The notes: generated by a model not told the origin, from the letters alone. A stretch of 64,000 nucleotides of DNA from Acidiferrobacterales bacterium (GCA_028820695.1 JAPPIB010000055.1:64015-128014), one strand, 5' to 3'; numbered from the stretch's first letter, positions 30,165 to 51,769 are shown. Numbers and translations: made by a program.

Positions 30165-31901
30165 ATGATTGATCGAGCTATCGCTTCGCGTCTTGTCAGG
30201 CTCTTTGAGCAGTATCCTTTCGTAACCGTGACCGGTCCGCGTCAATCCGGCAAGACAACACTGTGCCGCGCTGTGTTCCCTCATCTGAGGTACGTTAATC
30301 TAGAGTCACCGGATGTGCGGGAATTTGCTCAAAGCGATCCTCGCGGATTCTTGTCTGAAATTGACGATGGCGCAATTATTGATGAAGTTCAGCGTGTCCC
30401 GGAACTTCTTTCATACCTGCAGGTTCTGTCAGACGATAAAGGGCGTAGTAGCCTGTTTGTTCTGACAGGCAGCGAACACTTCAAACTCTCAAACACAATC
30501 AGTCAGTCCCTGGCAGGCCGAACCGGTTTACTTTACCTGCTTCCCTTAACCATTGCTGAACGCGACAGCACGGGTGCCGGCCAATCAATCGAAGACATTC
30601 TCTATTCGGGATTTTATCCACGCATATATGACCAGCAGCTTGATGCAAACCAAGCCTACTCTGACTACTTTGAGACTTACGTTGAACGGGACATACTGCG
30701 GATAGGCCAAATTCGCAATCGGCAGGAATTTCGGCGTTTCGTTCGTCTGTGTGCCGGCAGAATCGGACAGATCGCGAACTTGAGCACAATTGGAGCAGAT
30801 GCAGGTATATCGCACACAACAGCACAACAGTGGCTCAATCTTCTGGAAACCAGTTTCATTGCTTTCAGATTGCCTCCATTTCGTGCCAATCTTCGCAAGC
30901 GTCTCGTCAAGTCACCAAAAATCTATTTTTACGATGTAGGGCTCGCGGCCTATCTGATCGGTATCAACCAGCCGGAACAGATCAGCACCCACCCGATGCG
31001 AGGAGCGTTATTTGAGAACATGGTCGTCGTAGAAACCATGAAGTATTGTTTCAATAACGGGAAACGAGAAATTCTTTCTTTTTTTCGTGACAGTCGAGGT
31101 TTGGAGTGCGACTTGCTGTTCGAGACAGGCGATGAAATATTCGCGATCGAGATCAAATCGGGAGCAACGATCGCAACCGACTATTTCAAGCCGTTTGACA
31201 GAATTGGAGATCTGATTCCGAAAATATCAAGAAAAATCATTGTCTATGGCGGTTCGGCTCGCCAAACCCAAAGTTCAGTTGAGGTGGTGCCTTTCGGTGA
31301 CCTGTCTGATGTGCTTGATCGTTTTCAAGCTGAAAAAGAAATGTCATCCATTGCACGAACTGGTCTGTCCGATTTGCCCGATTCGTCTGACCGCGGCACA
31401 CTGGACGCAGTGTTTTACGCATACATCAGACCCACGCTTGATCATCTTGAGCAACTGCTGAGCGAGCATGTGAAACCGCTATTTCAAAGATATCACGCCG
31501 GCTCGAAACTTAGTGTCAGGGATCGAACAATCAACTCGGCTACCCTCTTCGAGCCCTCGCGCTGGGAGTCAATCAAAGAGCAAGAATTCGCATTTGTGGG
31601 ATTTAGAATCGAAAAATTGCAGCCACTGATATTCGTTCACAGTCTGGAGTTGAAGAATTTAGTTACCAACCTCAACCTTAACTTGACCGTTTCGTTGAAA
31701 TGGACTTTCGACACTGAAGCGTTGACACTTACGATTGATGTCGATGGAAATCAATGTACTGGGCTGTCGGGCCTGCGATGGCCTCATTCCCAAATCGGAA
31801 TCCAAAGTGCAAAAATTGACTTCATCTGTTCGACAGTCCTGAAATCAATCAAACTCGCGATTCAGCAAAATGCTTTGAGCGATTCTGACAGCCGCAAGTA
31901 A
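30165..31901 (+). CDS. AAA+ ATPase of the COG1373 type (AAA_14 + DUF4143-like) with a ~180-aa uncharacterised C-terminal extension
   Basis: It has Walker A VTGPRQSGKTTL, Walker B AIIDEVQRVPEL, then LTGSEHFKLS, GR...L.LLPL and FENMVV.E. This is the usual order in this ATPase family, but at 578 aa it is longer than the roughly 400 aa I recall as typical. Confidence 0.7.
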   Translation: MIDRAIASRLVRLFEQYPFVTVTGPRQSGKTTLCRAVFPHLRYVNLESPDVREFAQSDPRGFLSEIDDGAIIDEVQRVPELLSYLQVLSDDKGRSSLFVLTGSEHFKLSNTISQSLAGRTGLLYLLPLTIAERDSTGAGQSIEDILYSGFYPRIYDQQLDANQAYSDYFETYVERDILRIGQIRNRQEFRRFVRLCAGRIGQIANLSTIGADAGISHTTAQQWLNLLETSFIAFRLPPFRANLRKRLVKSPKIYFYDVGLAAYLIGINQPEQISTHPMRGALFENMVVVETMKYCFNNGKREILSFFRDSRGLECDLLFETGDEIFAIEIKSGATIATDYFKPFDRIGDLIPKISRKIIVYGGSARQTQSSVEVVPFGDLSDVLDRFQAEKEMSSIARTGLSDLPDSSDRGTLDAVFYAYIRPTLDHLEQLLSEHVKPLFQRYHAGSKLSVRDRTINSATLFEPSRWESIKEQEFAFVGFRIEKLQPLIFVHSLELKNLVTNLNLNLTVSLKWTFDTEALTLTIDVDGNQCTGLSGLRWPHSQIGIQSAKIDFICSTVLKSIKLAIQQNALSDSDSRK

Positions 31902-42139: not shown

Positions 42140-42314
42140 AGCGCAGTTCGAGGACCGGTTGGCCAAAGGACGTACAGCTTCACGGTCTGAACATCACTTG
42201 CTGTTTTGGCAGCTTGTCTCAACTGGCATTTTGATGTGCTTTGGTGTGGAGACTATCTGATTGGAAACGCGGTCACGTCCGAGCAGAAAATTAAGAAAAA
42301 TCAGTATTGAAGAC

Positions 42315-42881
42315 ATGTTGAGAGTTTTGTATGCCGTCGTATTCGGGCTCGTTCTGGTGCCAGTGCCATCAATCGGGCAGGATAGGTCTGCTGACTGCAA
42401 TCCTTCCATAAACATTGACATTGACGAGACGTCGTTTACCCGTGAAGAAGTGATTGCGCTGATAGACGAACTTTTCTATGAGTCACTGGCCGAGTATCAG
42501 GAATGTCTCGGAGGCGGCGCAAGCGGTGGTGCTGTCGCAAGCGGCGCAACCAGCGGCGGACAGACTTCAGGATCTATTGAGTCTGTAGCGGCATCGGGCG
42601 TTCAGGGTACAGATTCGCCGTCGCTCGAGCCTATTGAAGAAGAAAGTGTCAGCACTTTCCAATCTGACTTGCCGCCCGCAGACAATGGCAAGATTCCTGA
42701 AGACTTGCCGCTCGCAGACAATGGCAAGATTCCTGAAGACATTCCGCCCGCAGACAACGACAGCGTCCTCGCGGCACAGATCCGTCTCGCGGCGGAAAAT
42801 GAGACCGATCCGGCGGCACAGGCAGCCCTGTGGAACGAATATCGAAAGGTCAAGGGCATTAAAGTAAGGGAAGTCAAATAG
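42315..42881 (+). CDS. Secreted protein with tandem DLPxADNGKIPE repeats (first gene of the stator/vWA cluster)
   Basis: The signal-like N-terminus MLRVLYAVVFGLVLVPVPSIG is followed by a G/S/A-rich segment, the repeats and an acidic tail. I recognise no family. Confidence 0.45.
   Translation: MLRVLYAVVFGLVLVPVPSIGQDRSADCNPSINIDIDETSFTREEVIALIDELFYESLAEYQECLGGGASGGAVASGATSGGQTSGSIESVAASGVQGTDSPSLEPIEEESVSTFQSDLPPADNGKIPEDLPLADNGKIPEDIPPADNDSVLAAQIRLAAENETDPAAQAALWNEYRKVKGIKVREVK
42666..42762 (+). repeat. 36-bp in-frame tandem repeat, 2.7 copies
   Basis: Units at 42666-42701 and 42702-42737 differ at 2 positions. A partial third unit runs to about 42762. They encode DLPPADNGKIPE / DLPLADNGKIPE / DIPPADND. 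Confidence 0.85.
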
Positions 42882-42912
42882 CGAGAAACCGAATGTATTG
42901 GAGAATGGTCAA

Positions 42913-44136
42913 ATGAAAAAGATCTTTTTTATGCTGTGCTTGAGTCTGAGCGCATTGTCACTGGTCAGTTGTGTTGGCGGTGGGTCCGGCGGGCAGGTTT
43001 CTTCTTTGAGCAAGACGCCGTTCGGCGTCAGTCTTGAGGACTCACCAGGTAGCAAGACCGCAAGTCATTACGCGGGTGTCAAGCTCGACGTCATTGTTCC
43101 TGTATTCGACCCCAACATTCCTGAGGACCCCGACGAATACGAAAAACTTGGCGTGTGGCCAGAACTTCGAAGAACTGAATCGGTTCGGTTCGCTCAGGCG
43201 ATGAAATTGGCCCTGCAGGATACCATGGCTTTTGGCGATGTCCGCATCGCACCCGATGTGGCCGTCGCCGGCGACTTGTACGTAATCGGCAGAGTCGACA
43301 AGTCCAATGGTGAGGACATCGAAATCTACATCCAGGTCTACGATGCGAGCGGAAAAAGGTGGTCGAAAAAGACCTTCAAGCACCGCGTCAAGGAGTATCA
43401 CTGGAGGGATGTGCGTCAGAAAGATAAAGATCCGTATCAACCAGTTTTCTCGAAGGCTGCCGAACATATTGTCAGTCTGCTCAAGAAGGTTCCGCAACAA
43501 AGACTCGGAGATGTGAGAGCGATTACAGAAATCAAGTTTGCCAGTGCCTTTGTTCCGGGCGTGTACTCGGATCACGTAACAGTTGAGAATAACAAGATCC
43601 AACTCGTTTCCCTGCCGCCGGAAAACGACCCCATGCTTGAGCGTACCAGGGCGATCAGAGTGGTTGATGGGCTGTTCATGGATAAGATGCAGACTCACTA
43701 CAACAGTCTGGTACGGGACACGAACGACAGTTATGTCTCATGGCAGGAGCACAGCCTGACTTCTGCAAAACAGGCTCGAGAAGCAAAATCCAAGGCCGCA
43801 GGGCAAGCGATTCTAGGTGGGTTGCTGTTGCTGGGCGCTGCGTATGCGGCGTCCGAAAGTGACTCAACGGGCGATCAACTGGTAACCGCCGGTTTGGCTA
43901 CCGGAGGTGTATTGATGTTGCAGGACAGTTTCAGTGCCAACGCTGAAGGCAAATTCCACCAGGAAAATCTGATGGAGTTGGGACAGACGCTGAACTTTGA
44001 AGTGGCTCCACAAATTGTGGAGTTCGAAAATACGACTCTTGAGCTTCGAGGAGGAGTCAAGTCCCAGTATCGTCAATGGCTGACTGTGCTCGGAGACCTT
44101 TACGAGCGTGAAAGGATTCCTGATATTCAGCTTTGA
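42913..44136 (+). CDS. Lipoprotein with a C-terminal Gly/Ala-rich hydrophobic hairpin
   Basis: It has the lipobox LSLVSC and a large soluble domain, then AILGGLLLLGAAYAA...LVTAGLATGGVLML. I recognise no family. Confidence 0.5.
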   Translation: MKKIFFMLCLSLSALSLVSCVGGGSGGQVSSLSKTPFGVSLEDSPGSKTASHYAGVKLDVIVPVFDPNIPEDPDEYEKLGVWPELRRTESVRFAQAMKLALQDTMAFGDVRIAPDVAVAGDLYVIGRVDKSNGEDIEIYIQVYDASGKRWSKKTFKHRVKEYHWRDVRQKDKDPYQPVFSKAAEHIVSLLKKVPQQRLGDVRAITEIKFASAFVPGVYSDHVTVENNKIQLVSLPPENDPMLERTRAIRVVDGLFMDKMQTHYNSLVRDTNDSYVSWQEHSLTSAKQAREAKSKAAGQAILGGLLLLGAAYAASESDSTGDQLVTAGLATGGVLMLQDSFSANAEGKFHQENLMELGQTLNFEVAPQIVEFENTTLELRGGVKSQYRQWLTVLGDLYERERIPDIQL

Positions 44137-44206
44137 TGCCGAAGCCGACGTAGGAAGTTATTGCAGCGAGCCATGATTCAGTGGGTGTTGATGGTACTGA
44201 ACGAGC

Positions 44207-46294
44207 ATGCCCGCGACAGATGACATCACAACCCCAAAACAGAATCGTATTTCAACACGAACTCTGTTATTGACCGCCATCTTGCTCGTCGTTGTGTTGG
44301 CCGGCGGTGTCTGGCTTGCGCGAATGTATACGATCGATGACCTCGCGGGCATGGTGACTGATTCTTCGACCTGGCTTGACGACCCGCTTGATTCTCGAGA
44401 TGATTCAGCTGATCCAGTTCAGCTGAACCAGCGTTACCAGCAGCTGCATGCAGACCTGCAGGCTGCACTGAATTCAGATCAAAGTGAGAAACTTCGCAAT
44501 TTCGGGAGAGCAAAATTCCGCGAGCAGGTCGCTTTGGGGTTGATTCGTGCACAAGACGCTTTCAATGCCGGCGACGTCGACGATGCGCTGCGGCATTTGG
44601 AATTATCTGCAGAGCACTGGCGCCAGGCAGTCTCAGAAATCGATGCAATGTCCTCTGGTTCAGGAACTGTGCAACAGATTCAGGCGGGTCTTTCTGACAG
44701 ACAGACAGACGGCGTGTCTGATGATTCATCGAAGTCAGCATCAGAACAGAATCGAATGGATGAGGGAGGAGACTTATCACTTGATCACGATCAGCCCGGT
44801 GAGGTATCGATAGCGAATGTAATCCTTTCAATACCCATAGGTGAGCAAAGATCAGACGGTGATCTGGCGCAGGGCAACCGGCAATCGGTGGAGTTGCCGA
44901 TTTCGGACGCGGAACCAGAATTTACTGACGGCAGCAACATAGCGGATTCCGCTGAGGTGTCCGACCGGGAAGTTTCCGCATTGAGTCCACAAACGAACTT
45001 CGAAACCGAGGGCTCACAGCCAAGCGAAACAGAACATCAACGCGACACCGCGCCAGACAACGAAAATCTGGCCAGACTGGAGTACGAATTTTTGATGTCG
45101 GAACTGAATCGCGTTTTACCAACCGTTCAGGAAAACCAGAATCTTGTACCGCAAAACAAAAGCATCATTGAAACGGCGCAGCAAAATTTCACCAAGGCAA
45201 AAGATGCTTATCGAGTGCAGAGGTTCAGCGATGCAAAGCGATTCGCTGTTATCGCACTCGCTGACGCAAACAAGGCAGTCGAGCACGAAGAGCGGCATTA
45301 TCATCTGAGTCTGGCAGCTGCCAAGGATGCGTATGCAGACCGCAATGTCGAAATTGCCGCGCAGGCAATTGATCGGGCTGTTGCGTTGCGACCGAACAGT
45401 CATGAAGCGGCTCACTGGCACGATCAGATTGAATCATTGCCAAATCTGATCGAAGCGCAGCAAGACGCAGACTCTGCCCGCGACTCGGGCCAGTTGCACA
45501 AGGAAGTTGAAGCCCTCGAACGAGTCGTACTGTATTCGAACGACACCGATTGGACCGAACAACGCATCGCAGAACTTAAGCAATTGATCAGTGACAGGCA
45601 GTTCTTCAGCACCATTAGTCGGGGGCTTACGGCTTTATCGGATGGCAATATTGAACAGGCAAGAACCGAACTCTCGAACGCCAGGAATCAACGGCCATCT
45701 TCATCGGAAACCGCAAGATTGCAAAGTGGCATTGAACACGCAGAGCGACAACACAGGATCTCTGAACTCCTCGAAGCTGCCACACGCGCTTGGGAACAGG
45801 ATAACTGGAACAATGCACTTGTTCACTATCAGAAAGTCTTGTCCATCGATCCGGATCGTGATGAGGCCGTCCAAGGTCGTGAATTTGCAACCAGGATTAT
45901 CGCACTGCAAAGTGCAATGGATGATTTTCTCAACAGACCCCATCGACTGAGCTCGCCCAATATAGCCGCTTCTGCCAATTCAGCCGTTGAGAGTGCCGCG
46001 CCGTTGGGCGTTTTCAGCCGCAGACTCGAGTTGACTGCCAACTCGCTGGCAGATGCAATTCTCGAGTGGCAGACACCTGTGCTGGTAAGGGTGCTGTCAG
46101 ACGGAAAGACGGAAATCGGGATCCGGGGGGTCGGTCGCATCGGAAGGACGAAAGAAAAGTCAATCACATTGCGTCCTGGCACCTACGTTTTTGAAGGACG
46201 AAGAGAAGGATATCGCTCGACCCTGATAGAAATCGTCGTGGCAAGCAGCGAAATTGCACAGGAAATAACCGTGATCTGCAGTGAGCGAAGTTGA
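44207..46294 (+). CDS. N-terminally membrane-anchored protein: acidic disordered region, TPR-like helical repeats, C-terminal PEGA-like beta domain (TolA-like layout)
   Basis: The TM is TLLLTAILLVVVLAGGVWLA and residues ~150-290 are D/E/S-rich. TPR-like units include AKDAYRVQRFSDAKRFA and NWNNALVHYQKVLSIDPDRDEA. The C-terminus reads VLVRVLSDGKTEIGIRG...LRPGTYVFEGRREGYRS. Confidence 0.5.
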   Translation: MPATDDITTPKQNRISTRTLLLTAILLVVVLAGGVWLARMYTIDDLAGMVTDSSTWLDDPLDSRDDSADPVQLNQRYQQLHADLQAALNSDQSEKLRNFGRAKFREQVALGLIRAQDAFNAGDVDDALRHLELSAEHWRQAVSEIDAMSSGSGTVQQIQAGLSDRQTDGVSDDSSKSASEQNRMDEGGDLSLDHDQPGEVSIANVILSIPIGEQRSDGDLAQGNRQSVELPISDAEPEFTDGSNIADSAEVSDREVSALSPQTNFETEGSQPSETEHQRDTAPDNENLARLEYEFLMSELNRVLPTVQENQNLVPQNKSIIETAQQNFTKAKDAYRVQRFSDAKRFAVIALADANKAVEHEERHYHLSLAAAKDAYADRNVEIAAQAIDRAVALRPNSHEAAHWHDQIESLPNLIEAQQDADSARDSGQLHKEVEALERVVLYSNDTDWTEQRIAELKQLISDRQFFSTISRGLTALSDGNIEQARTELSNARNQRPSSSETARLQSGIEHAERQHRISELLEAATRAWEQDNWNNALVHYQKVLSIDPDRDEAVQGREFATRIIALQSAMDDFLNRPHRLSSPNIAASANSAVESAAPLGVFSRRLELTANSLADAILEWQTPVLVRVLSDGKTEIGIRGVGRIGRTKEKSITLRPGTYVFEGRREGYRSTLIEIVVASSEIAQEITVICSERS

Positions 46295-48296
46295 ACGAAT
46301 TCTGAACCTAGCACAGCGCAGCCACCGAAAACGGGCGGTCATCGCTACGGCAGTTGTAGTGTCGATCTGTGCGCTGGCAGGGGTGTTGTACTTCGCAACT
46401 GTGGTAATCGGGAAAGTATCTGTTGTCATAACACCGACGGAGGCATCCAATTCGGCCCAAATTGCAGTCACGCAGGGCAAGGGCTATGTGACGGGCTCCA
46501 GAATCTGGGGACTGAAAGGCGATATGATCATCCGGATATCAGCCGACGGGTATGAAACCGAGGAATTCTCGATCACACACGCGACATGGGAGCGGGAGAA
46601 GGTGGATGTGATCATGCGAGAAGTTCTCGCCACTCTGAAAGCAGTCGCCACACCCCGACTTCCTGACATCCGATGGCATCTGAATGATAACCTTGTCGGA
46701 CAAGGCGATTCGCTGGACATGAAACTGAACTCCGGAGATTACCGTATCAGTGCTGTACACCCCTATTATGTTCCGCAGACATCGGTATTTTCTGTGAACA
46801 GGGGCGAACGATACAATCTTGATCTGACACTGAAGCCGATGAAGGGAGAAATTTTCATCACATCGGCACCAGGCGGCGCTGAAGTGGCATCGGATCAAGA
46901 GGTGTTAGGCAGGACTCCGTTGAATCTGCAAGTCGAAGGCGGCGTTCATCACCTGACCGTTTCCGCTGACAGATACGACACCAAGACAGATTCGATATCA
47001 GTCAGCAATTCCTCTCCGACGGTCAAACGGCACTACGAGCTGAAAAGAACGTTGCGGCCGGTGTCGTTGATCCTTTCTCCAAAAGGAGGCGTCATCTCAT
47101 TGGACGATGAAGTCATATCGGTACCAACCGGCAAATTGCTCCTGCCCGTTGGAAGCCAGCACAGCCTGCGCTATTCCAAGCAAGGATTCAGCACGAAGGG
47201 CGAGAAGTTCACAGTCAATGAAAGCGGGAATTCGGTCGCGCTTGAGCTAAAGCCCATATACGGAGTGGTGAGAATCGATTCGCACCCGCGTGCGAAAATC
47301 GAGATTGGCGGTACGGACTATGGACAAACCCCCCAACTGCTGAAAATTCACGCCGTTGAACAGACTGTTGCGCTGAGCGCGCCCGGCTACCAGACACAGT
47401 TCAGAAAGTTTGTCCCGGACGAAAATGTCCCATTGGAGATGTTTGTCACACTGGAGACGAAAAGTGCCTACAGATTGAGAAATTCACCGGCGCAGTACTC
47501 GAACAGTGCGGGCATGGAGATGAAGCTGTTCAAAACCGCAGATACGATCACAGTGGGTTCACCGCGAGGTGAGATCGATCGACGGGCGAACGAGTTTCTC
47601 AGGGAGGTCAGGCTTTCAAGGCCGTTCTATGCCGGTGTTCATGAAGTATCGGTCGAGCAATACAACAAGTTCAAGTCGCCCGACGCGGCCGGCTCGGGAA
47701 ACCGTCATCCCATTGTCGGCATAGACTGGATTTCGGCCGCAAAGTTCTGTAATTGGCTTAGCAGGCAAGAAGGGCTTGAACCGGTTTATCTGTTCCCGGA
47801 CGGGCAATTTACCGGGAGCGATCCGTCCGCCGACGGTTATCGAATGCTGACCGAGGCTGAATGGGAGTGGCTGGCAAGAAAGGCAGGACGCGTTGAGCAG
47901 TCCATTTTTACGTGGGGTAACAGCAGGACAATACCCAAGAATTCCGGTAATCTCGCAGATGAATCAGCAACGGGAAAGGTGGAGTCATACATTCCCAACT
48001 ACAGCGATGGTGCACCGTCACTTTCCGAAACGGGACGTTTTTCGTCCAACCCGTCCGGACTGCATGATCTGACCGGGAATGCAAGGGAATGGGTACATGA
48101 TGCCTACAGCTTGCGGCCGCCGAGGGAGGGCGAGGTGAAAGATGACGTCCTGGACAGCGACGATTCGTTGCGGCGAACCTTCAAGGGATCAAGTTTCAGG
48201 TCGGCAGACCCTGCTGAGTTACGTGCTTCGTGGCGGGACGGCAGCGACTCGTCGGCCGATGACATTGGATTTCGAGTTGCCCGCTACCTTTACTGA
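46281..48296 (+). CDS. Membrane-anchored protein with several PEGA domains and a C-terminal FGE-sulfatase (SUMF1-like) domain
   Basis: GTG start overlapping the previous ORF by 14 nt; the TM is VIATAVVVSICALAGVLYFATVVI. PEGA units include GEIFITSAPGGAEVASDQEVLGRTPL and VVRIDSHPRAKIEIGGTDYGQTP. The FGE-type blocks are PFYAGVHEVSVEQYNKF, HPIVGIDWISAAKFCNWLS, YRMLTEAEWEW, NAREWVHD and GSSFRS...DIGFRVAR. Confidence 0.62.
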   Translation: MSEVERILNLAQRSHRKRAVIATAVVVSICALAGVLYFATVVIGKVSVVITPTEASNSAQIAVTQGKGYVTGSRIWGLKGDMIIRISADGYETEEFSITHATWEREKVDVIMREVLATLKAVATPRLPDIRWHLNDNLVGQGDSLDMKLNSGDYRISAVHPYYVPQTSVFSVNRGERYNLDLTLKPMKGEIFITSAPGGAEVASDQEVLGRTPLNLQVEGGVHHLTVSADRYDTKTDSISVSNSSPTVKRHYELKRTLRPVSLILSPKGGVISLDDEVISVPTGKLLLPVGSQHSLRYSKQGFSTKGEKFTVNESGNSVALELKPIYGVVRIDSHPRAKIEIGGTDYGQTPQLLKIHAVEQTVALSAPGYQTQFRKFVPDENVPLEMFVTLETKSAYRLRNSPAQYSNSAGMEMKLFKTADTITVGSPRGEIDRRANEFLREVRLSRPFYAGVHEVSVEQYNKFKSPDAAGSGNRHPIVGIDWISAAKFCNWLSRQEGLEPVYLFPDGQFTGSDPSADGYRMLTEAEWEWLARKAGRVEQSIFTWGNSRTIPKNSGNLADESATGKVESYIPNYSDGAPSLSETGRFSSNPSGLHDLTGNAREWVHDAYSLRPPREGEVKDDVLDSDDSLRRTFKGSSFRSADPAELRASWRDGSDSSADDIGFRVARYLY

Positions 48297-48407
48297 CTTC
48301 AGGCTGTCTATGAAAATTCACGATAGTTCCCAGGTAGTATAATCGACATGAACAGTAGTGAGATGTTGGCAAAAAGACAACTGCCTGTTCCAACAGGAGT
48401 CTGAGAT

Positions 48408-48569
48408 TTGTTTGGAATTCGTTCGAAATCGCGTATGTACGCGCTGATTCTTCTCACATCGCTGGCTATTGCTGTACTGGGAGTAAGCTACTACCTCTCT
48501 GAGCCCGCGCGTAGCCAGAATAGTCAAATCAGCCTGAATTCTCCGGTCAGCTTCCCGGTGGACATATGA
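48408..48569 (+). CDS. Small (53-aa) single-pass membrane protein, not in the ORF track
   Basis: TTG at 48408 lies 8 nt after AGGAG (48395-48399). The TM is MYALILLTSLAIAVLGVSYYL, and the stop TGA at 48567-48569 is 1 nt before the ATG of the MotA-like gene. An alternative ATG start is at 48435. Confidence 0.4.
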   Translation: MFGIRSKSRMYALILLTSLAIAVLGVSYYLSEPARSQNSQISLNSPVSFPVDI

Positions 48570-48570
48570 T

Positions 48571-49326
48571 ATGAAGCACACGGTTCGCAGTTTTGCGATA
48601 CTGGCAACTTCTGCGCTTGGTGTCCATCTTTTTTACATTGAGTTCATCAGACCGAAGGCTGAGATCGTTATCGAAGCCGCCCGCCGGGCCGGGCAGTCCG
48701 CCCCCCGGGAATGGGTTGTCATTCTTAAGGATTGGGAACAGGAAATCTGCATCATCCTGATGCTGTTCTGCATAGTGCAGATTGTTCTGAAACTCAGGGA
48801 GGTCGCCAAAGAACAATATCTGTTCAAAGTCGATCTCTTTGCGGCCGCGGATCAGGAGGAAACCCCGCTTGCTGACACCCTGGAAGAGCTGGAATCACTT
48901 CCCGATCACATTGGACGCACCCAGCTCTTGGAGACGCTGAAGGCCAGTCTGCGCCGCTACCGCATAACAGAAGATGTTCAGAACACCTCTGATGCCATAC
49001 AGACAAGTGTAGAGGCATTGTCTATGCGTCTGGAGGCGGACAATACGATGATCAGATATGTTATTTGGGCCATACCTTCCATCGGGTTCATCGGTACTGT
49101 TCGCGGTATCGGTACCGCGCTGTCGCAGGCTGACAAAGCATTGGCAGGCGATATTTCAGATATGACCGCCAGCCTTGGAATTGCGTTCAACTCAACTTTC
49201 GTCGCGCTGGTAATCAGTATAGTGCTCATGCTGCTGTTGCATTCCTTACAGCGGGCACAGGACAAAAGACTGGTTGACATTCAGAACTATTGCGAAGAAT
49301 TCCTGCTCAAACGCATCAGTCGTTGA
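48571..49326 (+). CDS. MotA/TolQ/ExbB-family proton-channel-like protein
   Basis: It has a 4-TM layout with a ~85-aa loop. IPSIGFIGTVRGIGTAL ... ASLGIAFNSTFVALVISIVLMLL matches the family signature by eye. Confidence 0.65.
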   Translation: MKHTVRSFAILATSALGVHLFYIEFIRPKAEIVIEAARRAGQSAPREWVVILKDWEQEICIILMLFCIVQIVLKLREVAKEQYLFKVDLFAAADQEETPLADTLEELESLPDHIGRTQLLETLKASLRRYRITEDVQNTSDAIQTSVEALSMRLEADNTMIRYVIWAIPSIGFIGTVRGIGTALSQADKALAGDISDMTASLGIAFNSTFVALVISIVLMLLLHSLQRAQDKRLVDIQNYCEEFLLKRISR

Positions 49327-49339
49327 CTTGTGATTCGCC

Positions 49340-50404
49340 ATGAGGAAAACTCGGCGCAGTCAAGGCAGCACACTCGCATTTCTTGACGTAATGGCGTGTG
49401 GCCTGGGCGTGGCCATCCTGCTATTCCTGATCGTCAAGCACAACACCGGTGCAGTCGAGGATCAGTCAAGTCAGGTGGAATCAGATGCGAATCAAGTCGA
49501 GTTGCTAAGCCAGTTGGAAGAGCACGAGTCGCAGCTTTCCCGCGAGCTTGAACTCGCACGGCAAGCCGAATCAGCGGCGCGCAACGAATCCCGGCGACTC
49601 GACGAACTTGAGAAGAAACAAAATCAACTGGCAATACTCCAGAGCCAGTTGGAATCCGAACGTGTGCGAAAGACCCGACTGCAAGATGAAATAGTTTCGA
49701 TACAGCCTCGACAGGCAGCCGATGTACTAGAAAATTCCCAGGTTGGCGAAGAGAAATATCTCTTGGGACTGGAAGTCAAAGGGCGCAACATCGCAATATT
49801 GATCGATCGCAGTGCGTCCATGACAGACAACTTGCTGGTCGATATCATCAGTCGAAAAGTTCGATCCGACACCATAAAAAAACAGGGCCCCAAGTGGAAA
49901 CGTACAGTACGGACTGCGAAGTGGCTGTTGAATCGAGTCCCCGAAGACTCGAATGTGATCGTGGTCGCATTCAACGATCAGGCGCAGATATTGAATGAAG
50001 GTCGCTGGGCCAAGGGACGGGACAGCGAATCGCTTCAGGGGATCGTCGACGAGTTGGCTCAGCTGGTCCCCACAGGCGCAACGAATCTGGAGTCTGCATT
50101 ACGGGAATTGAAATCCGCATCGCCATTTGCAAGCGACCTGTATGTCATTACCGATGGTTTGCCGACCCAAAGCTTGTCTCGACCGGTGTTGTTCTCCAGT
50201 TGCAGGAACAGGTCGAATACGGTCAGCGGCAGTTGTCGCAAGGCATACTTTCACAGCAGCCTGGTTGTGGTGCCGGAATCAGGAACAGTCGTTAACGTGA
50301 TATTGTTGCCTCTGGAGGGAGATCCCGAAGCCGCGCCCGAATACTGGTCGTGGGCCGCGGTGACTGGAGGCACAATGCTGGTTCCGGCGGAAAATTGGCC
50401 ATGA
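49340..50404 (+). CDS. ExbD/TolR-like TM(Asp) - coiled coil - vWA (MIDAS) protein
   Basis: The basic N-terminus is followed by the TM STLAFLDVMACGLGVAILLFLIV with Asp16 (49385-49387) and a ~100-aa heptad region. The vWA domain has DRSAS (49805-49819), GATN and ITDG. Confidence 0.65.
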   Translation: MRKTRRSQGSTLAFLDVMACGLGVAILLFLIVKHNTGAVEDQSSQVESDANQVELLSQLEEHESQLSRELELARQAESAARNESRRLDELEKKQNQLAILQSQLESERVRKTRLQDEIVSIQPRQAADVLENSQVGEEKYLLGLEVKGRNIAILIDRSASMTDNLLVDIISRKVRSDTIKKQGPKWKRTVRTAKWLLNRVPEDSNVIVVAFNDQAQILNEGRWAKGRDSESLQGIVDELAQLVPTGATNLESALRELKSASPFASDLYVITDGLPTQSLSRPVLFSSCRNRSNTVSGSCRKAYFHSSLVVVPESGTVVNVILLPLEGDPEAAPEYWSWAAVTGGTMLVPAENWP

Positions 50405-51339
50405 AAAAGAAAAGACAAGGTACAGAAGTCTTCAGCCTGGCGTTTTTGGACATTGTAACTTGCGGATTTGGTGCAATCATTCTGCTGTTGCTGATTACAA
50501 GACCGATCCCGGTCGAAGTTGATGCTGTTCAGGAATCTGTTGACCTGACGTCCTCCATACAACTCGTGTTGACGACCATTGCCAGGTTGGAAACCGAGTT
50601 GGCATCAATGAGCATGACCAAGCTGGAAGTTCCCAAGACCCGGCCCGGTGACACGGAGACGCTTGACCAATCCATTGCACAAGCCGGCGCTGAGCTTTCC
50701 GATTTGAAAGCTGACAATCTGGGCCTTGAACAAGTCGTCGAGTCATTGAAGCGGATAACAATCCGAGCAACCACAGAACCAGAGCAGCGAGCCCCGGAAG
50801 TCGGCGGAATTCCGGTTGACAGCGATCACGTCATATTCATTGTTGACACGTCGGGGAGCATGATGGCAATCTGGGACCAGGTCATCGATGTCATATATAA
50901 AGTGATCGACATCCATCCAAAAGTGAACGGATTTCAAATATTGAATGACAACGGAAGTTATCTGATTCAGGGCACTCGACGCAAGTGGATTCCGGATACG
51001 CCAATCACGCGAAAAAACGTCAAGGGCGTATTGTCTTCGTGGGCCAGTTTTTCCAACAGCAGTCCCGTCGAGGGTTTGGAAGTTGCGTTGAGGACCTACG
51101 CCAAACGCAAGGAGAACATATCAGTCTATATTTTCGGAGATGAGTTTACCGGCTCATCCTATGACGCGGTGATTGACACCGTAGATCGTTTGAATATCGA
51201 CAACTCGACCGAAAAAGCGATCGCACGTATACACGCAGTCGGATTCATTTCGGGGTACAGCGGTGACCGCTATGCGACATTAATGAGATATGTGACTGAA
51301 AGAAATCGCGGGTCATTTATTGGGTTGCCTTTGAGGTGA
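50401..51339 (+). CDS. Second ExbD/TolR-like TM(Asp) - coiled coil - vWA protein (paralogue of the preceding gene)
   Basis: It has an ATGA overlap with the previous ORF. The TM is FSLAFLDIVTCGFGAIILLLLIT with Asp17 (50449-50451), followed by a helical linker. The vWA-like domain has DTSGS (50845-50859) and IFGDE. Confidence 0.6.
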   Translation: MKKKRQGTEVFSLAFLDIVTCGFGAIILLLLITRPIPVEVDAVQESVDLTSSIQLVLTTIARLETELASMSMTKLEVPKTRPGDTETLDQSIAQAGAELSDLKADNLGLEQVVESLKRITIRATTEPEQRAPEVGGIPVDSDHVIFIVDTSGSMMAIWDQVIDVIYKVIDIHPKVNGFQILNDNGSYLIQGTRRKWIPDTPITRKNVKGVLSSWASFSNSSPVEGLEVALRTYAKRKENISVYIFGDEFTGSSYDAVIDTVDRLNIDNSTEKAIARIHAVGFISGYSGDRYATLMRYVTERNRGSFIGLPLR

Positions 51340-51567: not shown

Positions 51568-51769
51568 ATGGCGTCGCATGACAGGAAATTGTCAAAATTG
51601 TTGAAAGACAATGGATGGGTAATCGATAGACAGCCACGTGGCAGTCACTAAACGGTCATGATTGGTGTCATTCTTCCCGCACAATGAAAACAATTTTCAA
51701 GGCAAATGTGGCGCTCATCTGCATAATTCCCTTCAGAAAGCGATGTGTGGATTCAGTCAGAGAATCTGA
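51568..51769 (+). pseudogene. Degraded hicA-type toxin gene remnant
   Basis: ATG 51568 to TAA 51649-51651 encodes MASHDRKLSKLLKDNGWVIDRQPRGSH, matching the HicA N-terminal half up to the GSH motif before a premature stop. A shifted frame (51662-51769) reads LVSFFPHNENNFQGK...SLQKA, weakly like the HicA C-terminal half. No hicB partner is present. Confidence 0.4.

What the first reader, a model, noticed from the sequence alone, without database searches (positions are those of the whole stretch)
42261..51339. Eight-gene envelope cluster built around a MotA/ExbB-like channel, two vWA-tipped ExbD-like subunits, a TolA-like protein and a PEGA/FGE-sulfatase protein
Eight co-directional ORFs run from 42315 to 51339. 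The junctions are +31, +70, -14, +111 (before the unlisted small ORF at 48408-48569), +1, +13 and -4 nt. Every product has a signal peptide, a lipobox or an N-terminal TM, so the whole set is predicted to sit in the cell envelope.

The composition parallels Tol-Pal/Ton in outline. It has a MotA/TolQ/ExbB-like channel, ExbD/TolR-like partners, a TM-anchored long helical protein with a C-terminal beta domain (like TolA), TPR units (like CpoB) and lipoproteins (like Pal). The domains themselves differ: vWA/MIDAS heads, PEGA repeats and an FGE-sulfatase fold.

The FGE-fold plus ion-driven-motor combination also recalls GldJ/GldK with GldLM in Bacteroidetes gliding/T9SS. A MotAB-like stator outside a flagellar context recalls Zorya anti-phage systems. 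I do not recognise this gene set as any described system. It is followed by a decayed hicA toxin remnant, which hints at an accessory or mobile neighbourhood.
Basis: partly seen in the sequence, partly recalled or inferred. Interest (0 to 1): 0.86.

Follow-up and report, generated by a model that had tools for sequence, protein, structure and literature searches.

The report
Proton-motor envelope operon with vWA-tipped axle
This is a real eight-gene operon, conserved in hundreds of mostly marine bacteria, that most likely builds a proton-driven motor in the inner membrane, joined by adhesive (vWA) heads to a scaffold across the cell envelope; its three-gene core was predicted by computer in 2025, but nobody has tested what it does.

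Summary
Eight co-directional, tightly packed genes (42315-51339) are present with the stated junctions, and all products carry a signal peptide, lipobox or N-terminal membrane helix.

Six of the eight genes (P2, P3, P4, P6, P7, P8) are collinear in 66-80 of 80 related loci. P1 appears in 52. P5 is recognised by its end motif in 73 of 74 loci with enough upstream sequence. The flanking genes are unrelated housekeeping genes.

**Core.** It consists of a divergent MotA/TolQ/ExbB subunit (Pfam 1.6e-14) and two paralogous proteins. Each paralogue has an ExbD-like membrane helix with an invariant Asp, a coiled coil and a vWA head with an intact metal-binding site. This matches the "TolQ-like + paired trans-pore-helix vWA" module predicted in silico by PMC12204202 (2025), whose function is unknown.

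**Not found described in the papers searched.**
- Five constant partners accompany the core:
  - a disordered periplasmic protein;
  - a lipoprotein weakly resembling PelC and the TolB N-domain;
  - a TPR protein ending in a transthyretin-like domain (not TolA-like);
  - a PEGA-stalk protein with a catalytically dead, PorK/GldK-like FGE fold;
  - a 44-aa microprotein ending in "SFPVDI".
- Some lineages add kinase, FHA and TonB_C parts.

It is not Zorya, not T9SS and not mobile. I rate it a new variant of a known kind, of moderate-to-high interest.

The parts
42315..42881 (+). P1: secreted periplasmic protein of 188 aa. It has a signal peptide, an N-terminal motif with two Cys, a long Gly/Ser-rich disordered linker, and a conserved acidic/helical C-terminal motif (NGKxPEDIPxADNDSxLAAQIRxAAxxExDPxxxxLWNEYRKYKG).
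   Evidence: An N-terminal hydrophobic segment is present. Orthologues are found upstream of P2 in 52 of 80 loci. The alignment shows that only the Cys motif and the C-terminal 50 aa are conserved. There is no Pfam, NCBIfam or PDB match.
42913..44136 (+). P2: lipoprotein of 407 aa (lipobox LVSC, Val at +2, so probably outer-membrane). It has an alpha/beta domain, a roughly 70-residue helix, a Gly-rich hydrophobic stretch and a small C-terminal beta/alpha unit.
   Evidence: The lipobox is present. The protein is 100% identical to a MAG protein annotated as hypothetical, from an Acidiferrobacterales bacterium. It is found in 66 of 80 loci. The AF2 model has pLDDT 75. The best Foldseek matches are weak: PelC dodecamer (E 1.3e-3, TM 0.54 on the target), TolB N-domain, PqiC and LptE. 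There is no Pfam or PDB sequence match.
44207..46294 (+). P3: bitopic inner-membrane protein of 695 aa. It has a 17-aa cytoplasmic tip, a membrane helix, a helical segment, a 130-aa disordered insert specific to this lineage, a long TPR-like solenoid and a C-terminal transthyretin/carboxypeptidase-regulatory-like beta-sandwich.
   Evidence: The AF2 model has pLDDT above 90 for residues 283-622 and beta strands at 625-688. Foldseek matches TPR proteins and the C-terminal domains of carboxypeptidases D, N and M. TPR Pfam hits occur in 15 of 38 orthologues. The C-terminus gives a weak CarboxypepD_reg hit in 6 of 23. P3 is found in 67 of 80 loci.
46281..48296 (+). P4: bitopic inner-membrane protein of 671 aa. 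It has a membrane helix, a stalk of PEGA/CarboxypepD_reg beta-sandwich repeats, and a C-terminal FGE-sulfatase (C-type-lectin-like) fold that lacks the catalytic cysteines, as in PorK/GldK.
   Evidence: Pfam gives PEGA 1.4e-24 (three stretches above threshold; further weaker beta-sandwich hits) and FGE-sulfatase 3e-29. NCBIfam GldK scores 58 bits against a cut-off of 350. The closest solved sequences are 5aoh and PorK/GldK at about 3e-9, then human FGE at 1e-6. No Cys lies between the GSS[FWY] and GFR motifs in 0 of 43 orthologues. P4 is found in 76 of 80 loci.
48435..48569 (+). P5: microprotein of 44 aa (53 aa from TTG at 48408). It has an N-terminal signal or anchor helix, a short tether and a near-invariant C-terminal end, ISLNSPVSFPVDI-COOH. 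Its stop codon lies 1 nt before the motor gene.
   Evidence: The translation is shown. Orthologous small ORFs with the same C-terminus occur in 73 of 74 loci, 44 of them ending in "SFPVDI". My estimate of the chance expectation for this motif is below 0.01 per locus. Many orthologues have an AxA-type cleavage site, which would leave a peptide of about 17-20 aa.
48571..49326 (+). P6: MotA/TolQ/ExbB-family subunit of 251 aa, the presumed pentameric proton channel or rotor. It is ExbB/TolQ-like and short, with no Zorya-type tail.
   Evidence: Pfam PF01618 scores 1.6e-14, 54 bits against a cut-off of 22.9. NCBIfam gives exbB2 1.7e-5 and tolQ 3.3e-5. Orthologues are 66-93% identical across more than 100 clusters. 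The invariant motif WAIPSIGFxGTVRGIG aligns T176 with TolQ T145. S208 and T209 are invariant in the last helix.
49340..50404 (+). P7: trans-pore-helix vWA protein of 354 aa. It has an ExbD/TolR-like N-terminal helix with invariant Asp16, a coiled coil of about 100 aa and a periplasmic vWA domain with a complete MIDAS (metal-ion-dependent adhesion site) of D156-x-S158-x-S160, T248 and D272. It also has conserved Cys288/Cys299 and a conserved C-terminal WP.
   Evidence: VWA_2 scores 1.8e-7. The invariant columns are listed. The N-terminal motif sFLDvMsCGlGA is present in all orthologues. DxSxS is present in 67 of 67. Coiled-coil-type PDB matches fall over residues 35-125. The family has 718 representatives at 50% identity, 217 of them with E <= 1e-30 and all about 350 aa long.
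50401..51339 (+). P8: paralogue of P7, 312 aa. It has the same Asp-bearing helix (Asp17), a coiled coil and a divergent vWA domain with a MIDAS-like D149-x-S151-x-S153, S220 and D247.
   Evidence: hhalign of P8 against P7 gives probability 99.7%, E 8.6e-26. Twelve of 39 orthologues hit VWA_2. The invariant columns are listed. DxSxS is present in 78 of 79; the exception is cut off by a contig end. P8 overlaps the P7 stop codon by 4 nt.

Best explanation
The operon encodes a self-contained machine that spans the cell envelope and runs on the proton-motive force. It is a relative of the Ton and Tol systems.

**Motor (inferred assembly).** P6 forms the pentameric MotA/TolQ/ExbB-type channel in the inner membrane. 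One P7 and one P8 insert their Asp-bearing N-terminal helices into its pore as the dimeric axle, taking the place of ExbD, TolR or MotB. Proton flow through the Asp/Thr site drives relative rotation.

**Output (inferred).** The P7/P8 heterodimeric coiled coil is about 15 nm long. It carries two vWA heads into the periplasm. Their metal-ion-dependent adhesion sites (MIDAS) latch onto an acidic ligand in a partner protein.

**Scaffold (inferred).** The partners are encoded in the same operon.
- P4 is a membrane-anchored stalk of PEGA beta-sandwiches ending in a non-catalytic, PorK/GldK-like lectin fold.
- P3 is a membrane-anchored TPR solenoid with a beta-sandwich tip.
- P2 is an outer-membrane lipoprotein with a PelC/TolB-N-like domain.
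- P1 is a disordered periplasmic protein with an acidic C-terminal motif.
- P5 is a microprotein. Its invariant C-terminal SFPVDI-COOH is a candidate ligand for the vWA MIDAS or for the TPR domain, or a plug or assembly factor sitting at the motor's periplasmic mouth.

**Function.** The motor would pull on or turn this scaffold to do mechanical work near the peptidoglycan and outer membrane. My best guess for that work is outer-membrane or cell-wall maintenance, or handling of a surface structure. The actual cellular function is untested.

**What is shown and what is inferred.** Shown: operon conservation, family memberships, the conserved Asp, Thr and MIDAS residues, and loss of the FGE catalytic Cys pair. 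Inferred: 5:2 stoichiometry, topology, who binds whom, and the physiological output.
For: **Conservation**
- The eight genes are collinear in up to 80 loci from Alpha-, Gamma- and Zetaproteobacteria, Nitrosomonadaceae, Desulfobacterota and Binatia, and their flanks are not conserved.
- At least 592 species-level genomes carry the motor gene.

**Motor**
- P6 is a MotA/TolQ/ExbB member above the Pfam cut-off. Its GxxGT motif aligns to TolQ T145.
- P7 and P8 carry an invariant Asp in an FLDvM helix in every orthologue.
- No ExbD, TolR or MotB gene is present.

**Output heads**
- The MIDAS DxSxS motif is retained in 67 of 67 P7 orthologues and 78 of 79 P8 orthologues.
- P7 and P8 are paralogues.

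**Literature**
- PMC12204202 reports AF3 models for this type of module. In them, two vWA-protein helices sit inside a TolQ-like pentamer, with the Asp pair ringed by conserved Thr.

**Envelope location**
- All eight products have export or anchor signals.
- Conserved Cys pairs in P1 and P7 fit a periplasmic location.

**Scaffold**
- P4's FGE fold is closest to the T9SS ring protein PorK and lacks the catalytic Cys pair.
- P2 weakly resembles ring-forming outer-membrane lipoproteins.

**Variants**
- Variant operons add a TPR + TonB_C protein (7 loci), which fits a Ton-like force-transduction logic.
Against: - There is no experimental datum for any component.
- I could not model the complex here. 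The 5:2 assembly rests on analogy and on another group's AF3 models of a reference (Idiomarina) whose orthology to this window I could not check by sequence.
- Sequence similarity of P6 to solved TolQ is marginal (E = 1).
- P2's fold matches are weak (E >= 1e-3).
- The operon encodes no peptidoglycan-binding OmpA-like domain, no outer-membrane beta-barrel and no obvious cargo, so the object acted on is unknown.
- Proposing P5, P1 or P4 as vWA ligands is speculation. Loci where P5's Asp is replaced by Asn keep an intact MIDAS, so that comparison gives no covariation support.
- Kinase/FHA variants suggest that signalling, rather than pure mechanics, may be central.
Confidence: 0.6

Rival explanations
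1. It is an envelope sensor or signalling device. The motor and vWA heads probe the state of the periplasm, peptidoglycan or outer membrane. They report to the cytoplasm through the short N-terminal tails of P3 and P4, in the manner of the T6SS threonine-phosphorylation pathway, in which the kinase PpkA has a periplasmic vWA domain. Mechanical work is secondary.
For: - In the Woeseiaceae-type locus L069 the P3 orthologue carries an N-terminal Ser/Thr kinase domain (Pkinase 6e-29).
- The extra gene between the motor gene and P7 (10 loci) carries an FHA domain in L069, the only copy in which Pfam detects one (5.4e-12).
- A distant P3 relative, P0247, also combines Pkinase with TPR.
- P4 orthologues share a conserved basic cytoplasmic motif before the membrane helix (seen in the sequences printed).
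- FGE-like folds and vWA domains are common ligand-binding sensor modules (PMC7159879).
Against: - About 70 of the 80 loci, including this window, have no cytoplasmic signalling domain. The P3 and P4 cytoplasmic tips are only about 17-24 aa.
- No response regulator, sigma or anti-sigma factor, or other output gene is conserved next to the operon.
- A proton-driven motor is an expensive sensor.
Confidence: 0.15
2. It is a proteobacterial analogue of the T9SS/gliding core (PorKLMN/GldKLMN). An inner-membrane motor would drive a periplasmic, outer-membrane-proximal ring built from the PorK-like domain of P4 and the lipoprotein P2, to secrete or move a surface adhesin.
For: - P4's FGE fold hits GldK (8.5e-16) and GldJ models. 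Solved PorK/GldK structures are among its best PDB relatives.
- Like PorK, it lacks the FGE catalytic cysteines.
- P2 weakly resembles ring-forming lipoproteins such as PelC and PqiC.
- vWA adhesins take part in Myxococcus gliding (PMC9946355).
Against: - The GldK score is 58 bits against a cut-off of 350, so P4 is not a GldK orthologue.
- No GldL/PorL, GldM/PorM, GldN/PorN, Sov/SprA translocon or CTD cargo was detected.
- The motor is TolQ/ExbB-type, not GldL-type.
- P4 is anchored in the inner membrane rather than being an outer-membrane lipoprotein.
- No adhesin or beta-barrel gene is linked.
Confidence: 0.12
3. It is a Zorya-like anti-phage defence system or another conflict system that uses a MotAB-like sensor.
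For: - P6 gives weak local matches to ZorA models (PADLOC 1.2e-4; NCBIfam ZorA_4 0.028).
- A truncated hicA remnant lies 229 nt downstream.
- vWA, FGE-like, FHA and kinase domains recur in conflict systems (PMC7159879).
Against: - The ZorA match covers only the shared MotA core. P6 is 251 aa and lacks the long ZorA tail.
- PADLOC finds no ZorB, ZorC, ZorD or ZorE, nor any effector, for any other product.
- Flanks in the window and in 69 neighbouring genes elsewhere are metabolic housekeeping genes with no defence or mobility genes.
- No homologue is found on 72,556 plasmids or 50,697 phages.
- The strong conservation and fixed architecture (P6 at 66-93% identity across orders) are unlike rapidly diversifying defence loci.
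Confidence: 0.04
4. It is a chance juxtaposition of unrelated envelope genes, or an annotation artefact.
For: Several products have no Pfam match (P1, P2, P5) or only a faint one (P8). Promoter and terminator scans show no enrichment.
Against: The same order and strand recur across phyla, with overlapping or 1-13 nt junctions. Only these genes are shared between loci.
Confidence: 0.01

Closest known systems
TolQ-like motor with paired trans-pore-helix (TPH) vWA proteins, predicted in silico by PMC12204202 (Mol Biol Evol 2025, Fig. 4c-d; reference organism Idiomarina loihiensis)
   Same: - A tolQ-like gene lies next to two heterologous membrane-anchored vWA genes, with no tolR/exbD.
- The vWA proteins have a helix with a conserved Asp and no SHLS motif.
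- The module is found in Proteobacteria.
- Its function is unknown.

Every defining feature given in the paper is met here.
   Different: - The paper's text and legends describe only the three-gene core. They do not mention PEGA, FGE or sulfatase, a lipoprotein or a microprotein.
- This work shows a constant eight-gene operon, intact MIDAS sites, and kinase/FHA/TonB_C variants.
- I could not check direct orthology to the Idiomarina reference, because the supplement text held here contains no sequence for it.
Ton (ExbB-ExbD-TonB) and Tol-Pal (TolQ-TolR-TolA-TolB-Pal-CpoB)
   Same: - It has a MotA/TolQ/ExbB-family channel.
- The partner helix has an Asp in an FxDVM-type motif.
- It combines bitopic inner-membrane proteins that span the periplasm, a TPR protein and a lipoprotein.
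- P2's alpha/beta domain weakly resembles the TolB N-domain.
   Different: - No ExbD/TolR periplasmic domain is present.
- The core operon has no TolA/TonB C-terminal domain and no SHLS helix.
- There is no TolB beta-propeller and no Pal OmpA-like domain.
- The axle itself carries the output domains (vWA heads), instead of a separate TonB or TolA bound at the side of the motor.
- According to PMC12204202's supplement, Idiomarina has a normal tol-pal locus as well, so this system is additional rather than a replacement.
T9SS/gliding core PorK/GldK with the PorLM/GldLM motor
   Same: A proton-driven inner-membrane motor is combined with a non-catalytic FGE-sulfatase-fold protein that should sit near the outer membrane. 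PorK is among P4's best solved relatives.
   Different: - The motor family differs (TolQ/ExbB-type, not GldL).
- There are no GldM, GldN or Sov components.
- The FGE fold sits at the tip of an inner-membrane-anchored PEGA stalk, not on a lipoprotein.
- The system is found in Proteobacteria and Binatia, not Bacteroidota.
Zorya (ZorAB plus effectors)
   Same: It is a non-flagellar MotA-family protein outside a Ton/Tol context, with weak ZorA model matches.
   Different: - There is no ZorA tail.
- There is no ZorB peptidoglycan-binding domain.
- There are no ZorC, ZorD or ZorE components.
- The locus is not in a defence island and is not mobile.
T6SS threonine-phosphorylation pathway (PpkA kinase with periplasmic vWA domain, Fha1) and Myxococcus Agl-Glt with the vWA adhesin CglB
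   Same: Envelope machines that combine vWA domains with a Hanks-type kinase/FHA module (as in variant loci) or with TolQR-type motors (PMC9946355).
   Different: - In this system the vWA domains are fused to the motor's own axle helices.
- No T6SS or Glt components are linked.
- The kinase and FHA parts occur only in a minority of lineages.

Membership tests
MotA/TolQ/ExbB proton-channel family (PF01618) | Profile match above the curated cut-off | tested here: met
   P6 scores 54.2 bits against a cut-off of 22.9, E 1.6e-14, covering profile positions 9-125 of 127.
MotA/TolQ/ExbB proton-channel family (PF01618) | Conserved pore-lining Thr in the last two membrane helices (TolQ T145/T178, ExbB T148/T181) | tested here: met
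   T176 is invariant in GFxGTVRGIG and aligns to TolQ T145. S208 and T209 are invariant in the last helix; in the ungapped HMMER alignment they lie one residue from the TolQ T178 column.
MotA/TolQ/ExbB proton-channel family (PF01618) | 5:2 assembly with an Asp-bearing partner helix | not testable with these tools
   No multimer modelling is available here. PMC12204202 reports AF3 models for this module type.
ExbD/TolR family (PF02472) | ExbD/TolR periplasmic domain detectable by profile | tested here: not met
   There is no ExbD hit for P7 or P8 or among 39 P8 orthologues. PADLOC and NCBIfam give none.
ExbD/TolR family (PF02472) | Single N-terminal membrane helix with the essential Asp (ExbD D25, TolR D23) | tested here: met
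   The Asp is invariant in the sFLDvMsCGxGA helix of every P7 and P8 orthologue. The resemblance to ExbD's PFIDVM rests on my memory of that sequence, and BLASTP finds no alignment.
TolQ-like + paired TPH-vWA module (PMC12204202) | tolQ homologue adjacent to membrane-tethered vWA genes, with no tolR/exbD nearby | tested here: met
   P6, P7 and P8 are adjacent in 79 of 80 loci, and no ExbD/TolR family is seen in the operon or flanks.
TolQ-like + paired TPH-vWA module (PMC12204202) | vWA genes occur as a heterologous pair | tested here: met
   P7 and P8 are distinct paralogues (hhalign E 8.6e-26, 18% identity), and both are present in 79 of 80 loci.
TolQ-like + paired TPH-vWA module (PMC12204202) | Trans-pore helix with a conserved Asp and without the SHLS motif of TonB/TolA | tested here: met
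   The Asp is invariant, and no Ser-His-Leu-Ser is present in the helices.
TolQ-like + paired TPH-vWA module (PMC12204202) | Orthology to the paper's reference proteins (Idiomarina loihiensis) | not tested
   The supplement text held here contains no sequence for them. Alteromonadales loci (Glaciecola, Opacimonas, Alteromonadaceae) are in my syntenic set.
vWA domain with MIDAS | DxSxS ... T ... D metal-site residues | tested here: met
   P7 has D156, S158, S160, T248 and D272, invariant or nearly so. P8 has D149, S151, S153 and D247, with S220 in place of Thr. DxSxS is present in 67 of 67 P7 and 78 of 79 P8 orthologues.
Formylglycine-generating enzyme (active FGE) | Catalytic Cys pair between the GGS[FYW] and GFR motifs (human C336/C341; from established knowledge) | tested here: not met
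   No Cys occurs in that segment in the window protein or in any of 43 orthologues with both motifs. The fold itself is present (PF03781, 3e-29).
T9SS PorK/GldK (TIGR03525) and GldLMN | Equivalog-level match to GldK and presence of GldL, GldM and GldN | tested here: not met
   GldK scores 58 bits against a cut-off of 350. No GldL, GldM or GldN family is hit by any operon product.
Tol-Pal | TolA C-terminal domain, TolB beta-propeller and Pal OmpA-like domain | tested here: not met
   P3's C-terminus is a transthyretin-like beta-sandwich. P2 resembles only the TolB N-domain, and weakly. No OmpA-like domain is present.
Zorya | ZorA with a long C-terminal tail, ZorB with a peptidoglycan-binding domain, and ZorC/D or ZorE effectors | tested here: not met
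   ZorA matches are local only (E 1.2e-4 over 90 residues). NCBIfam ZorA_4 scores 13 bits against a cut-off of 500. The other seven products give no defence-system family: six have no PADLOC hit, and P3 has one chance-level hit to a candidate family (E 0.019).

The most novel reading that the evidence does not exclude
The eight genes would encode a previously uncharacterised, self-contained class of proton-driven envelope machine, distinct from the Ton, Tol, flagellar stator, Agl-Glt, T9SS and Zorya systems. In it the motor's own axle ends in two MIDAS adhesion heads. These heads would grip and move a dedicated periplasmic and outer-membrane scaffold made of a PorK-like lectin fold on a PEGA stalk, a TPR protein and a PelC-like lipoprotein. 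A secreted microprotein with an invariant SFPVDI-COOH end would act as ligand, plug or assembly cofactor. In some lineages the machine would be wired to Ser/Thr-kinase/FHA signalling.
Probability: 0.4. Interest if true: 0.85.

Novelty: new variant of a known kind. Interest (0 to 1): 0.64.

Why it matters
**Why a new system of this kind is worth studying.** Ion-driven 5:2 motors power flagella, Ton-dependent nutrient import, Tol-Pal envelope maintenance, gliding with type IX secretion, and Zorya immunity. Each newly understood output has opened a field.

**What is unusual here.** The system is present in at least 592 species-level genomes of mostly marine Proteobacteria and Binatia, including sponge symbionts. 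It replaces the usual ExbD/TolR/MotB partner with two vWA adhesion proteins. A mechanism in which the rotating or pulling element is itself the adhesive head would be new.

**What this analysis adds.**
- It defines the full parts list of eight proteins, including an overlooked microprotein.
- It identifies conserved residues to mutate: the helix Asp, the pore Thr, the MIDAS residues and the SFPVDI end.
- It names cultured hosts: Magnetovibrio blakemorei, Sneathiella, Glaciecola, Aestuariispira, Denitrobaculum and Opacimonas.

**Consequence.** The open question of what this motor does becomes directly testable. The outcome could reveal a third Tol/Ton-like route for energising the outer membrane.

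Tried and rejected
**Searches that found nothing useful**
- Profile and sequence searches of P1, P2, the P3 C-terminus, P6, P7 and P8 against solved structures gave no significant hits. The exception was a marginal TolQ hit for P6 (E = 1).
- A short query of the P4 C-terminus against PDB returned only designed TIM barrels, which was uninformative. I settled the catalytic-Cys question by motif inspection across orthologues instead.
- Promoter and terminator scans were not above the shuffled expectation. There are no tRNA or Rfam hits in the window.
- The word-indexed protein search for P3 returned only 7 hits, so the P3 model rests on a shallow alignment. Its TPR and beta-sandwich parts are still confident.
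- Literature searches for PEGA, FGE or SUMF1 together with a MotA-family protein and vWA found no paper on the accessory genes. Two early searches failed on term syntax.

- No multimer modelling was possible.

**Tests with a negative result**
- Covariation between P5's C-terminal Asp and the MIDAS: three loci with Asn instead of Asp keep intact MIDAS sites, so there is no signal either way.
- Recurrent neighbours that might hint at function: all-versus-all clustering and a Pfam census of 69 flanking genes found none.

**Readings rejected**
- Zorya or defence island.
- T9SS membership.
- Active FGE enzyme.
- TolA homology of P3.
- Mobile-element context.

Full report
**1. What is in the sequence**

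ORF listing and translation confirm eight co-directional genes between 42315 and 51339 on the + strand. I chose start codons that agree with the orthologues. The genes are:

| Gene | Coordinates | Length |
|---|---|---|
| P1 | 42315-42881 | 188 aa |
| P2 | 42913-44136 | 407 aa |
| P3 | 44207-46294 | 695 aa |
| P4 | 46281-48296 | 671 aa |
| P5 | 48435-48569 | 44 aa (ORF opens at 48408) |
| P6 | 48571-49326 | 251 aa |
| P7 | 49340-50404 | 354 aa |
| P8 | 50401-51339 | 312 aa |

Each product begins with a hydrophobic segment, and P2 has a lipobox (LVSC).

P2 and P3 are 100% identical to proteins annotated as "hypothetical" in a MAG labelled Acidiferrobacterales bacterium, on a 200,475-bp contig.

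The flanks are ordinary chromosome. Upstream lie a MacB/FtsX-type ABC transporter, tyrosyl-tRNA synthetase, a GATase and a thioesterase. Downstream lie an amino-acid ABC transporter, threonine synthase and an M23 peptidase.

**2. It is a conserved operon, not a chance cluster**

The motor protein P6 has thousands of relatives, with more than 100 clusters at 66-93% identity. A scan of one genome per GTDB species found at least 592 loci.

In the 80 loci fetched, tblastn finds P6 in 80, P7 in 79, P8 in 79, P4 in 76, P3 in 67, P2 in 66 and P1 in 52. All lie on the same strand and in the same order. Most gaps are where contigs end. None of the window's flanking genes is conserved.

All-versus-all clustering of every ORF in these loci shows that only the operon genes recur. 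A Pfam census of 69 immediately neighbouring genes finds no family in more than 3 of them, and all are housekeeping.

Hosts span:
- Gammaproteobacteria: Arenicellales, Methylophaga, Alteromonadaceae, Pseudomonadales and Woeseiaceae.
- Alphaproteobacteria: Sneathiella, Magnetovibrio, Rhodospirillales and Rickettsiales-like.
- Zetaproteobacteria, Nitrosomonadaceae, Desulfobacterota and Binatia.

No homologue of P7 occurs in the plasmid or phage collections.

**3. The motor core**

P6 matches MotA_ExbB well above the Pfam cut-off (54 bits against 22.9). Among named models it is nearest to ExbB and TolQ. Its invariant WAIPSIGFxGTVRGIG motif places T176 on TolQ T145, and the last helix carries invariant S208 and T209.

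P7 and P8 are paralogues (hhalign 99.7%, E 8.6e-26) with the same plan:
- A basic tip.
- A membrane helix with the motif sFLDvMsCGxGA, whose Asp is invariant in every orthologue of both proteins.
- About 100 residues that match coiled-coil proteins.
- A vWA domain: VWA_2 at 1.8e-7 for P7, and 12 of 39 P8 orthologues hit VWA_2.

The metal-site residues are conserved. DxSxS is present in 67 of 67 P7 and 78 of 79 P8 orthologues, along with the downstream Thr (Ser in P8) and Asp.

There is no ExbD, TolR or MotB gene in or near the operon, and P7/P8 have no ExbD domain. The P7 family is compact and uniform: 718 representatives at 50% identity, about 350 aa each.

**4. The five partners**

*P4.* This protein is a membrane helix, PEGA/CarboxypepD_reg beta-sandwich repeats and an FGE-sulfatase fold. 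Among solved structures that fold is closest to 5aoh and to the T9SS ring protein PorK/GldK (E about 3e-9), ahead of true FGE. The segment that holds the two catalytic cysteines in FGE contains no Cys in any of 43 orthologues. It is therefore a binding or structural module.

*P3.* The AF2 model shows:
- a membrane helix;
- a lineage-specific disordered insert (residues 151-282);
- a confident TPR-like solenoid (residues 283-622, pLDDT above 90);
- a C-terminal beta-sandwich that matches carboxypeptidase regulatory/transthyretin-like domains.

It does not match TolA or TonB.

*P2.* This is a lipoprotein with no sequence relatives of known function. The model (pLDDT 75) has an alpha/beta domain that weakly matches the PelC dodecamer, the TolB N-domain, PqiC and LptE (best E 1.3e-3). 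It also has a long helix and a Gly-rich hydrophobic stretch.

*P1.* This is a secreted, mostly disordered protein. Only an N-terminal motif with two Cys and an acidic/helical C-terminal motif are conserved.

*P5.* This is the surprise. tblastn missed it, but a small ORF with an N-terminal signal or anchor helix and the end "...SLNSPVSFPVDI-stop" sits immediately upstream of the motor gene in 73 of 74 loci. Many orthologues have an AxA-type cleavage site, which would release a peptide of about 17-20 residues.

**5. Variants**

In ten Pseudomonadales- and Woeseiaceae-type loci, an extra 380-470-aa gene lies between the motor gene and P7. Pfam detects a C-terminal FHA domain in the L069 copy (5.4e-12) but found none in the L067 copy.
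- In L069 the P3 orthologue gains an N-terminal Ser/Thr kinase domain (6e-29).
- Seven loci add an upstream TPR + TonB_C protein and two downstream lipoprotein-like genes.

These variants tie the system both to Ton-like force transduction and to phospho-signalling.

**6. How it most likely works**

*Shown:* the conserved gene set, the family memberships, the Asp, Thr and MIDAS residues, and loss of FGE catalysis.

*Inferred:*
- A P6 pentamer surrounds a P7/P8 heterodimeric axle.
- Proton flow through the Asp/Thr site drives rotation.
- The coiled coil, about 15 nm long, presents two MIDAS heads in the periplasm.
- The heads grip an acidic ligand in the P1-P5 scaffold. That scaffold reaches from the inner membrane (P3, P4) to the outer membrane (P2).

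Candidate ligands are P5's C-terminus, P1's PEDIPPADND motif and P4's lectin fold. Alternatively, P5-COOH could bind the P3 TPR groove, as EEVD-type tails bind TPR clamps (established knowledge), or it could act as a plug.

The physiological output is unknown. I favour envelope mechanics (outer-membrane or cell-wall maintenance, or handling of a surface structure) at about 0.6 for the motor-transducer framework. The rivals are:
- a signalling device (0.15);
- a T9SS-like secretion or gliding analogue (0.12);
- defence (0.04).

**7. Comparison with what is known**

PMC12204202 (2025) describes, from genomics and AF3 models, a "second family" of membrane-tethered vWA proteins. They co-occur tightly with tolQ homologues and lack tolR/exbD. 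They come in heterologous pairs and carry a trans-pore helix with a conserved Asp. They are found mainly in Proteobacteria and Verrucomicrobia, and no function is known. The window's P6-P8 meet every stated feature, so the core is not new.

That paper's text does not mention PEGA, FGE or sulfatase domains. I found no other paper on the partners and no experimental work.

The system is not a member of the ExbD/TolR, Tol-Pal, GldKLMN or Zorya families, nor an active FGE. In each case a defining feature was tested and not met (see the membership table).

**8. Verdict**

The finding is real and well observed.

I rate novelty as a new variant of a known kind. It is an uncharacterised 5:2-motor system whose core was recently predicted. 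Here it is extended to a full eight-component parts list, with a conserved microprotein and signalling variants. Interest is 0.64.

Noticed in passing
window 51568-51651 (+): A truncated hicA toxin remnant. The 27-aa ORF MASHDRKLSKLLKDNGWVIDRQPRGSH-stop matches HicA_toxin positions 2-22 of 58 (E 6.7e-5, below the Pfam cut-off). No hicB is visible nearby. It lies 229 nt after the operon and is not conserved in other loci.
   Followed up: partly
L069:1734-4079, L069:7767-9134, L067:10760-11899, L067:2240-3682, L067:13977-15448: Pseudomonadales- and Woeseiaceae-type versions of the operon carry extra parts. A Ser/Thr kinase domain is fused to the P3 orthologue in L069. An extra gene lies between the motor gene and P7 in 10 loci; Pfam detects a C-terminal FHA domain in the L069 copy but found none in the L067 copy. 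An upstream TPR + TonB_C protein and two downstream lipoprotein-like genes occur in 7 loci each.
   Followed up: partly
window 44657-45052 (P3 residues about 151-282): The window's P3 carries a disordered, acidic/Ser-rich insert of about 130 aa that most orthologues lack (median about 495 aa). The closest relatives (P0242-P0245) are longer still, at 889-1024 aa. The region appears to expand and contract quickly.
   Followed up: no
window 42720-42800 (P1 C-terminal part): In this genome P1 contains a tandem duplication of the acidic unit ADNGKIPEDxP, just before the conserved C-terminal motif.
   Followed up: no
L043:7758-11229 (- strand); L071:7544-8986: Two rearranged loci. In a Rickettsiales-like MAG the P1-P3 genes lie downstream on the opposite strand. 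In L071 a FAD-dependent oxidoreductase (DAO) gene is inserted between P4 and the motor gene.
   Followed up: no
window 30165-31901 (+): An AAA_14/DUF4143 ATPase gene sits in the only low-GC stretch of the window (GC 0.48 against about 0.53). This may be an inserted element. It is unrelated to the operon.
   Followed up: no
window 46281-46350 and orthologues (P4 N-terminus): P4 orthologues share a short basic cytoplasmic motif (about LxxAQxRxxR) just before the membrane helix. It could be a contact point for the motor's cytoplasmic face or for regulators.
   Followed up: no
window 43042-43698 (- strand): A 218-aa antisense ORF lies inside P2. It is very probably spurious, since it overlaps a conserved coding region on the other strand.
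   Followed up: no
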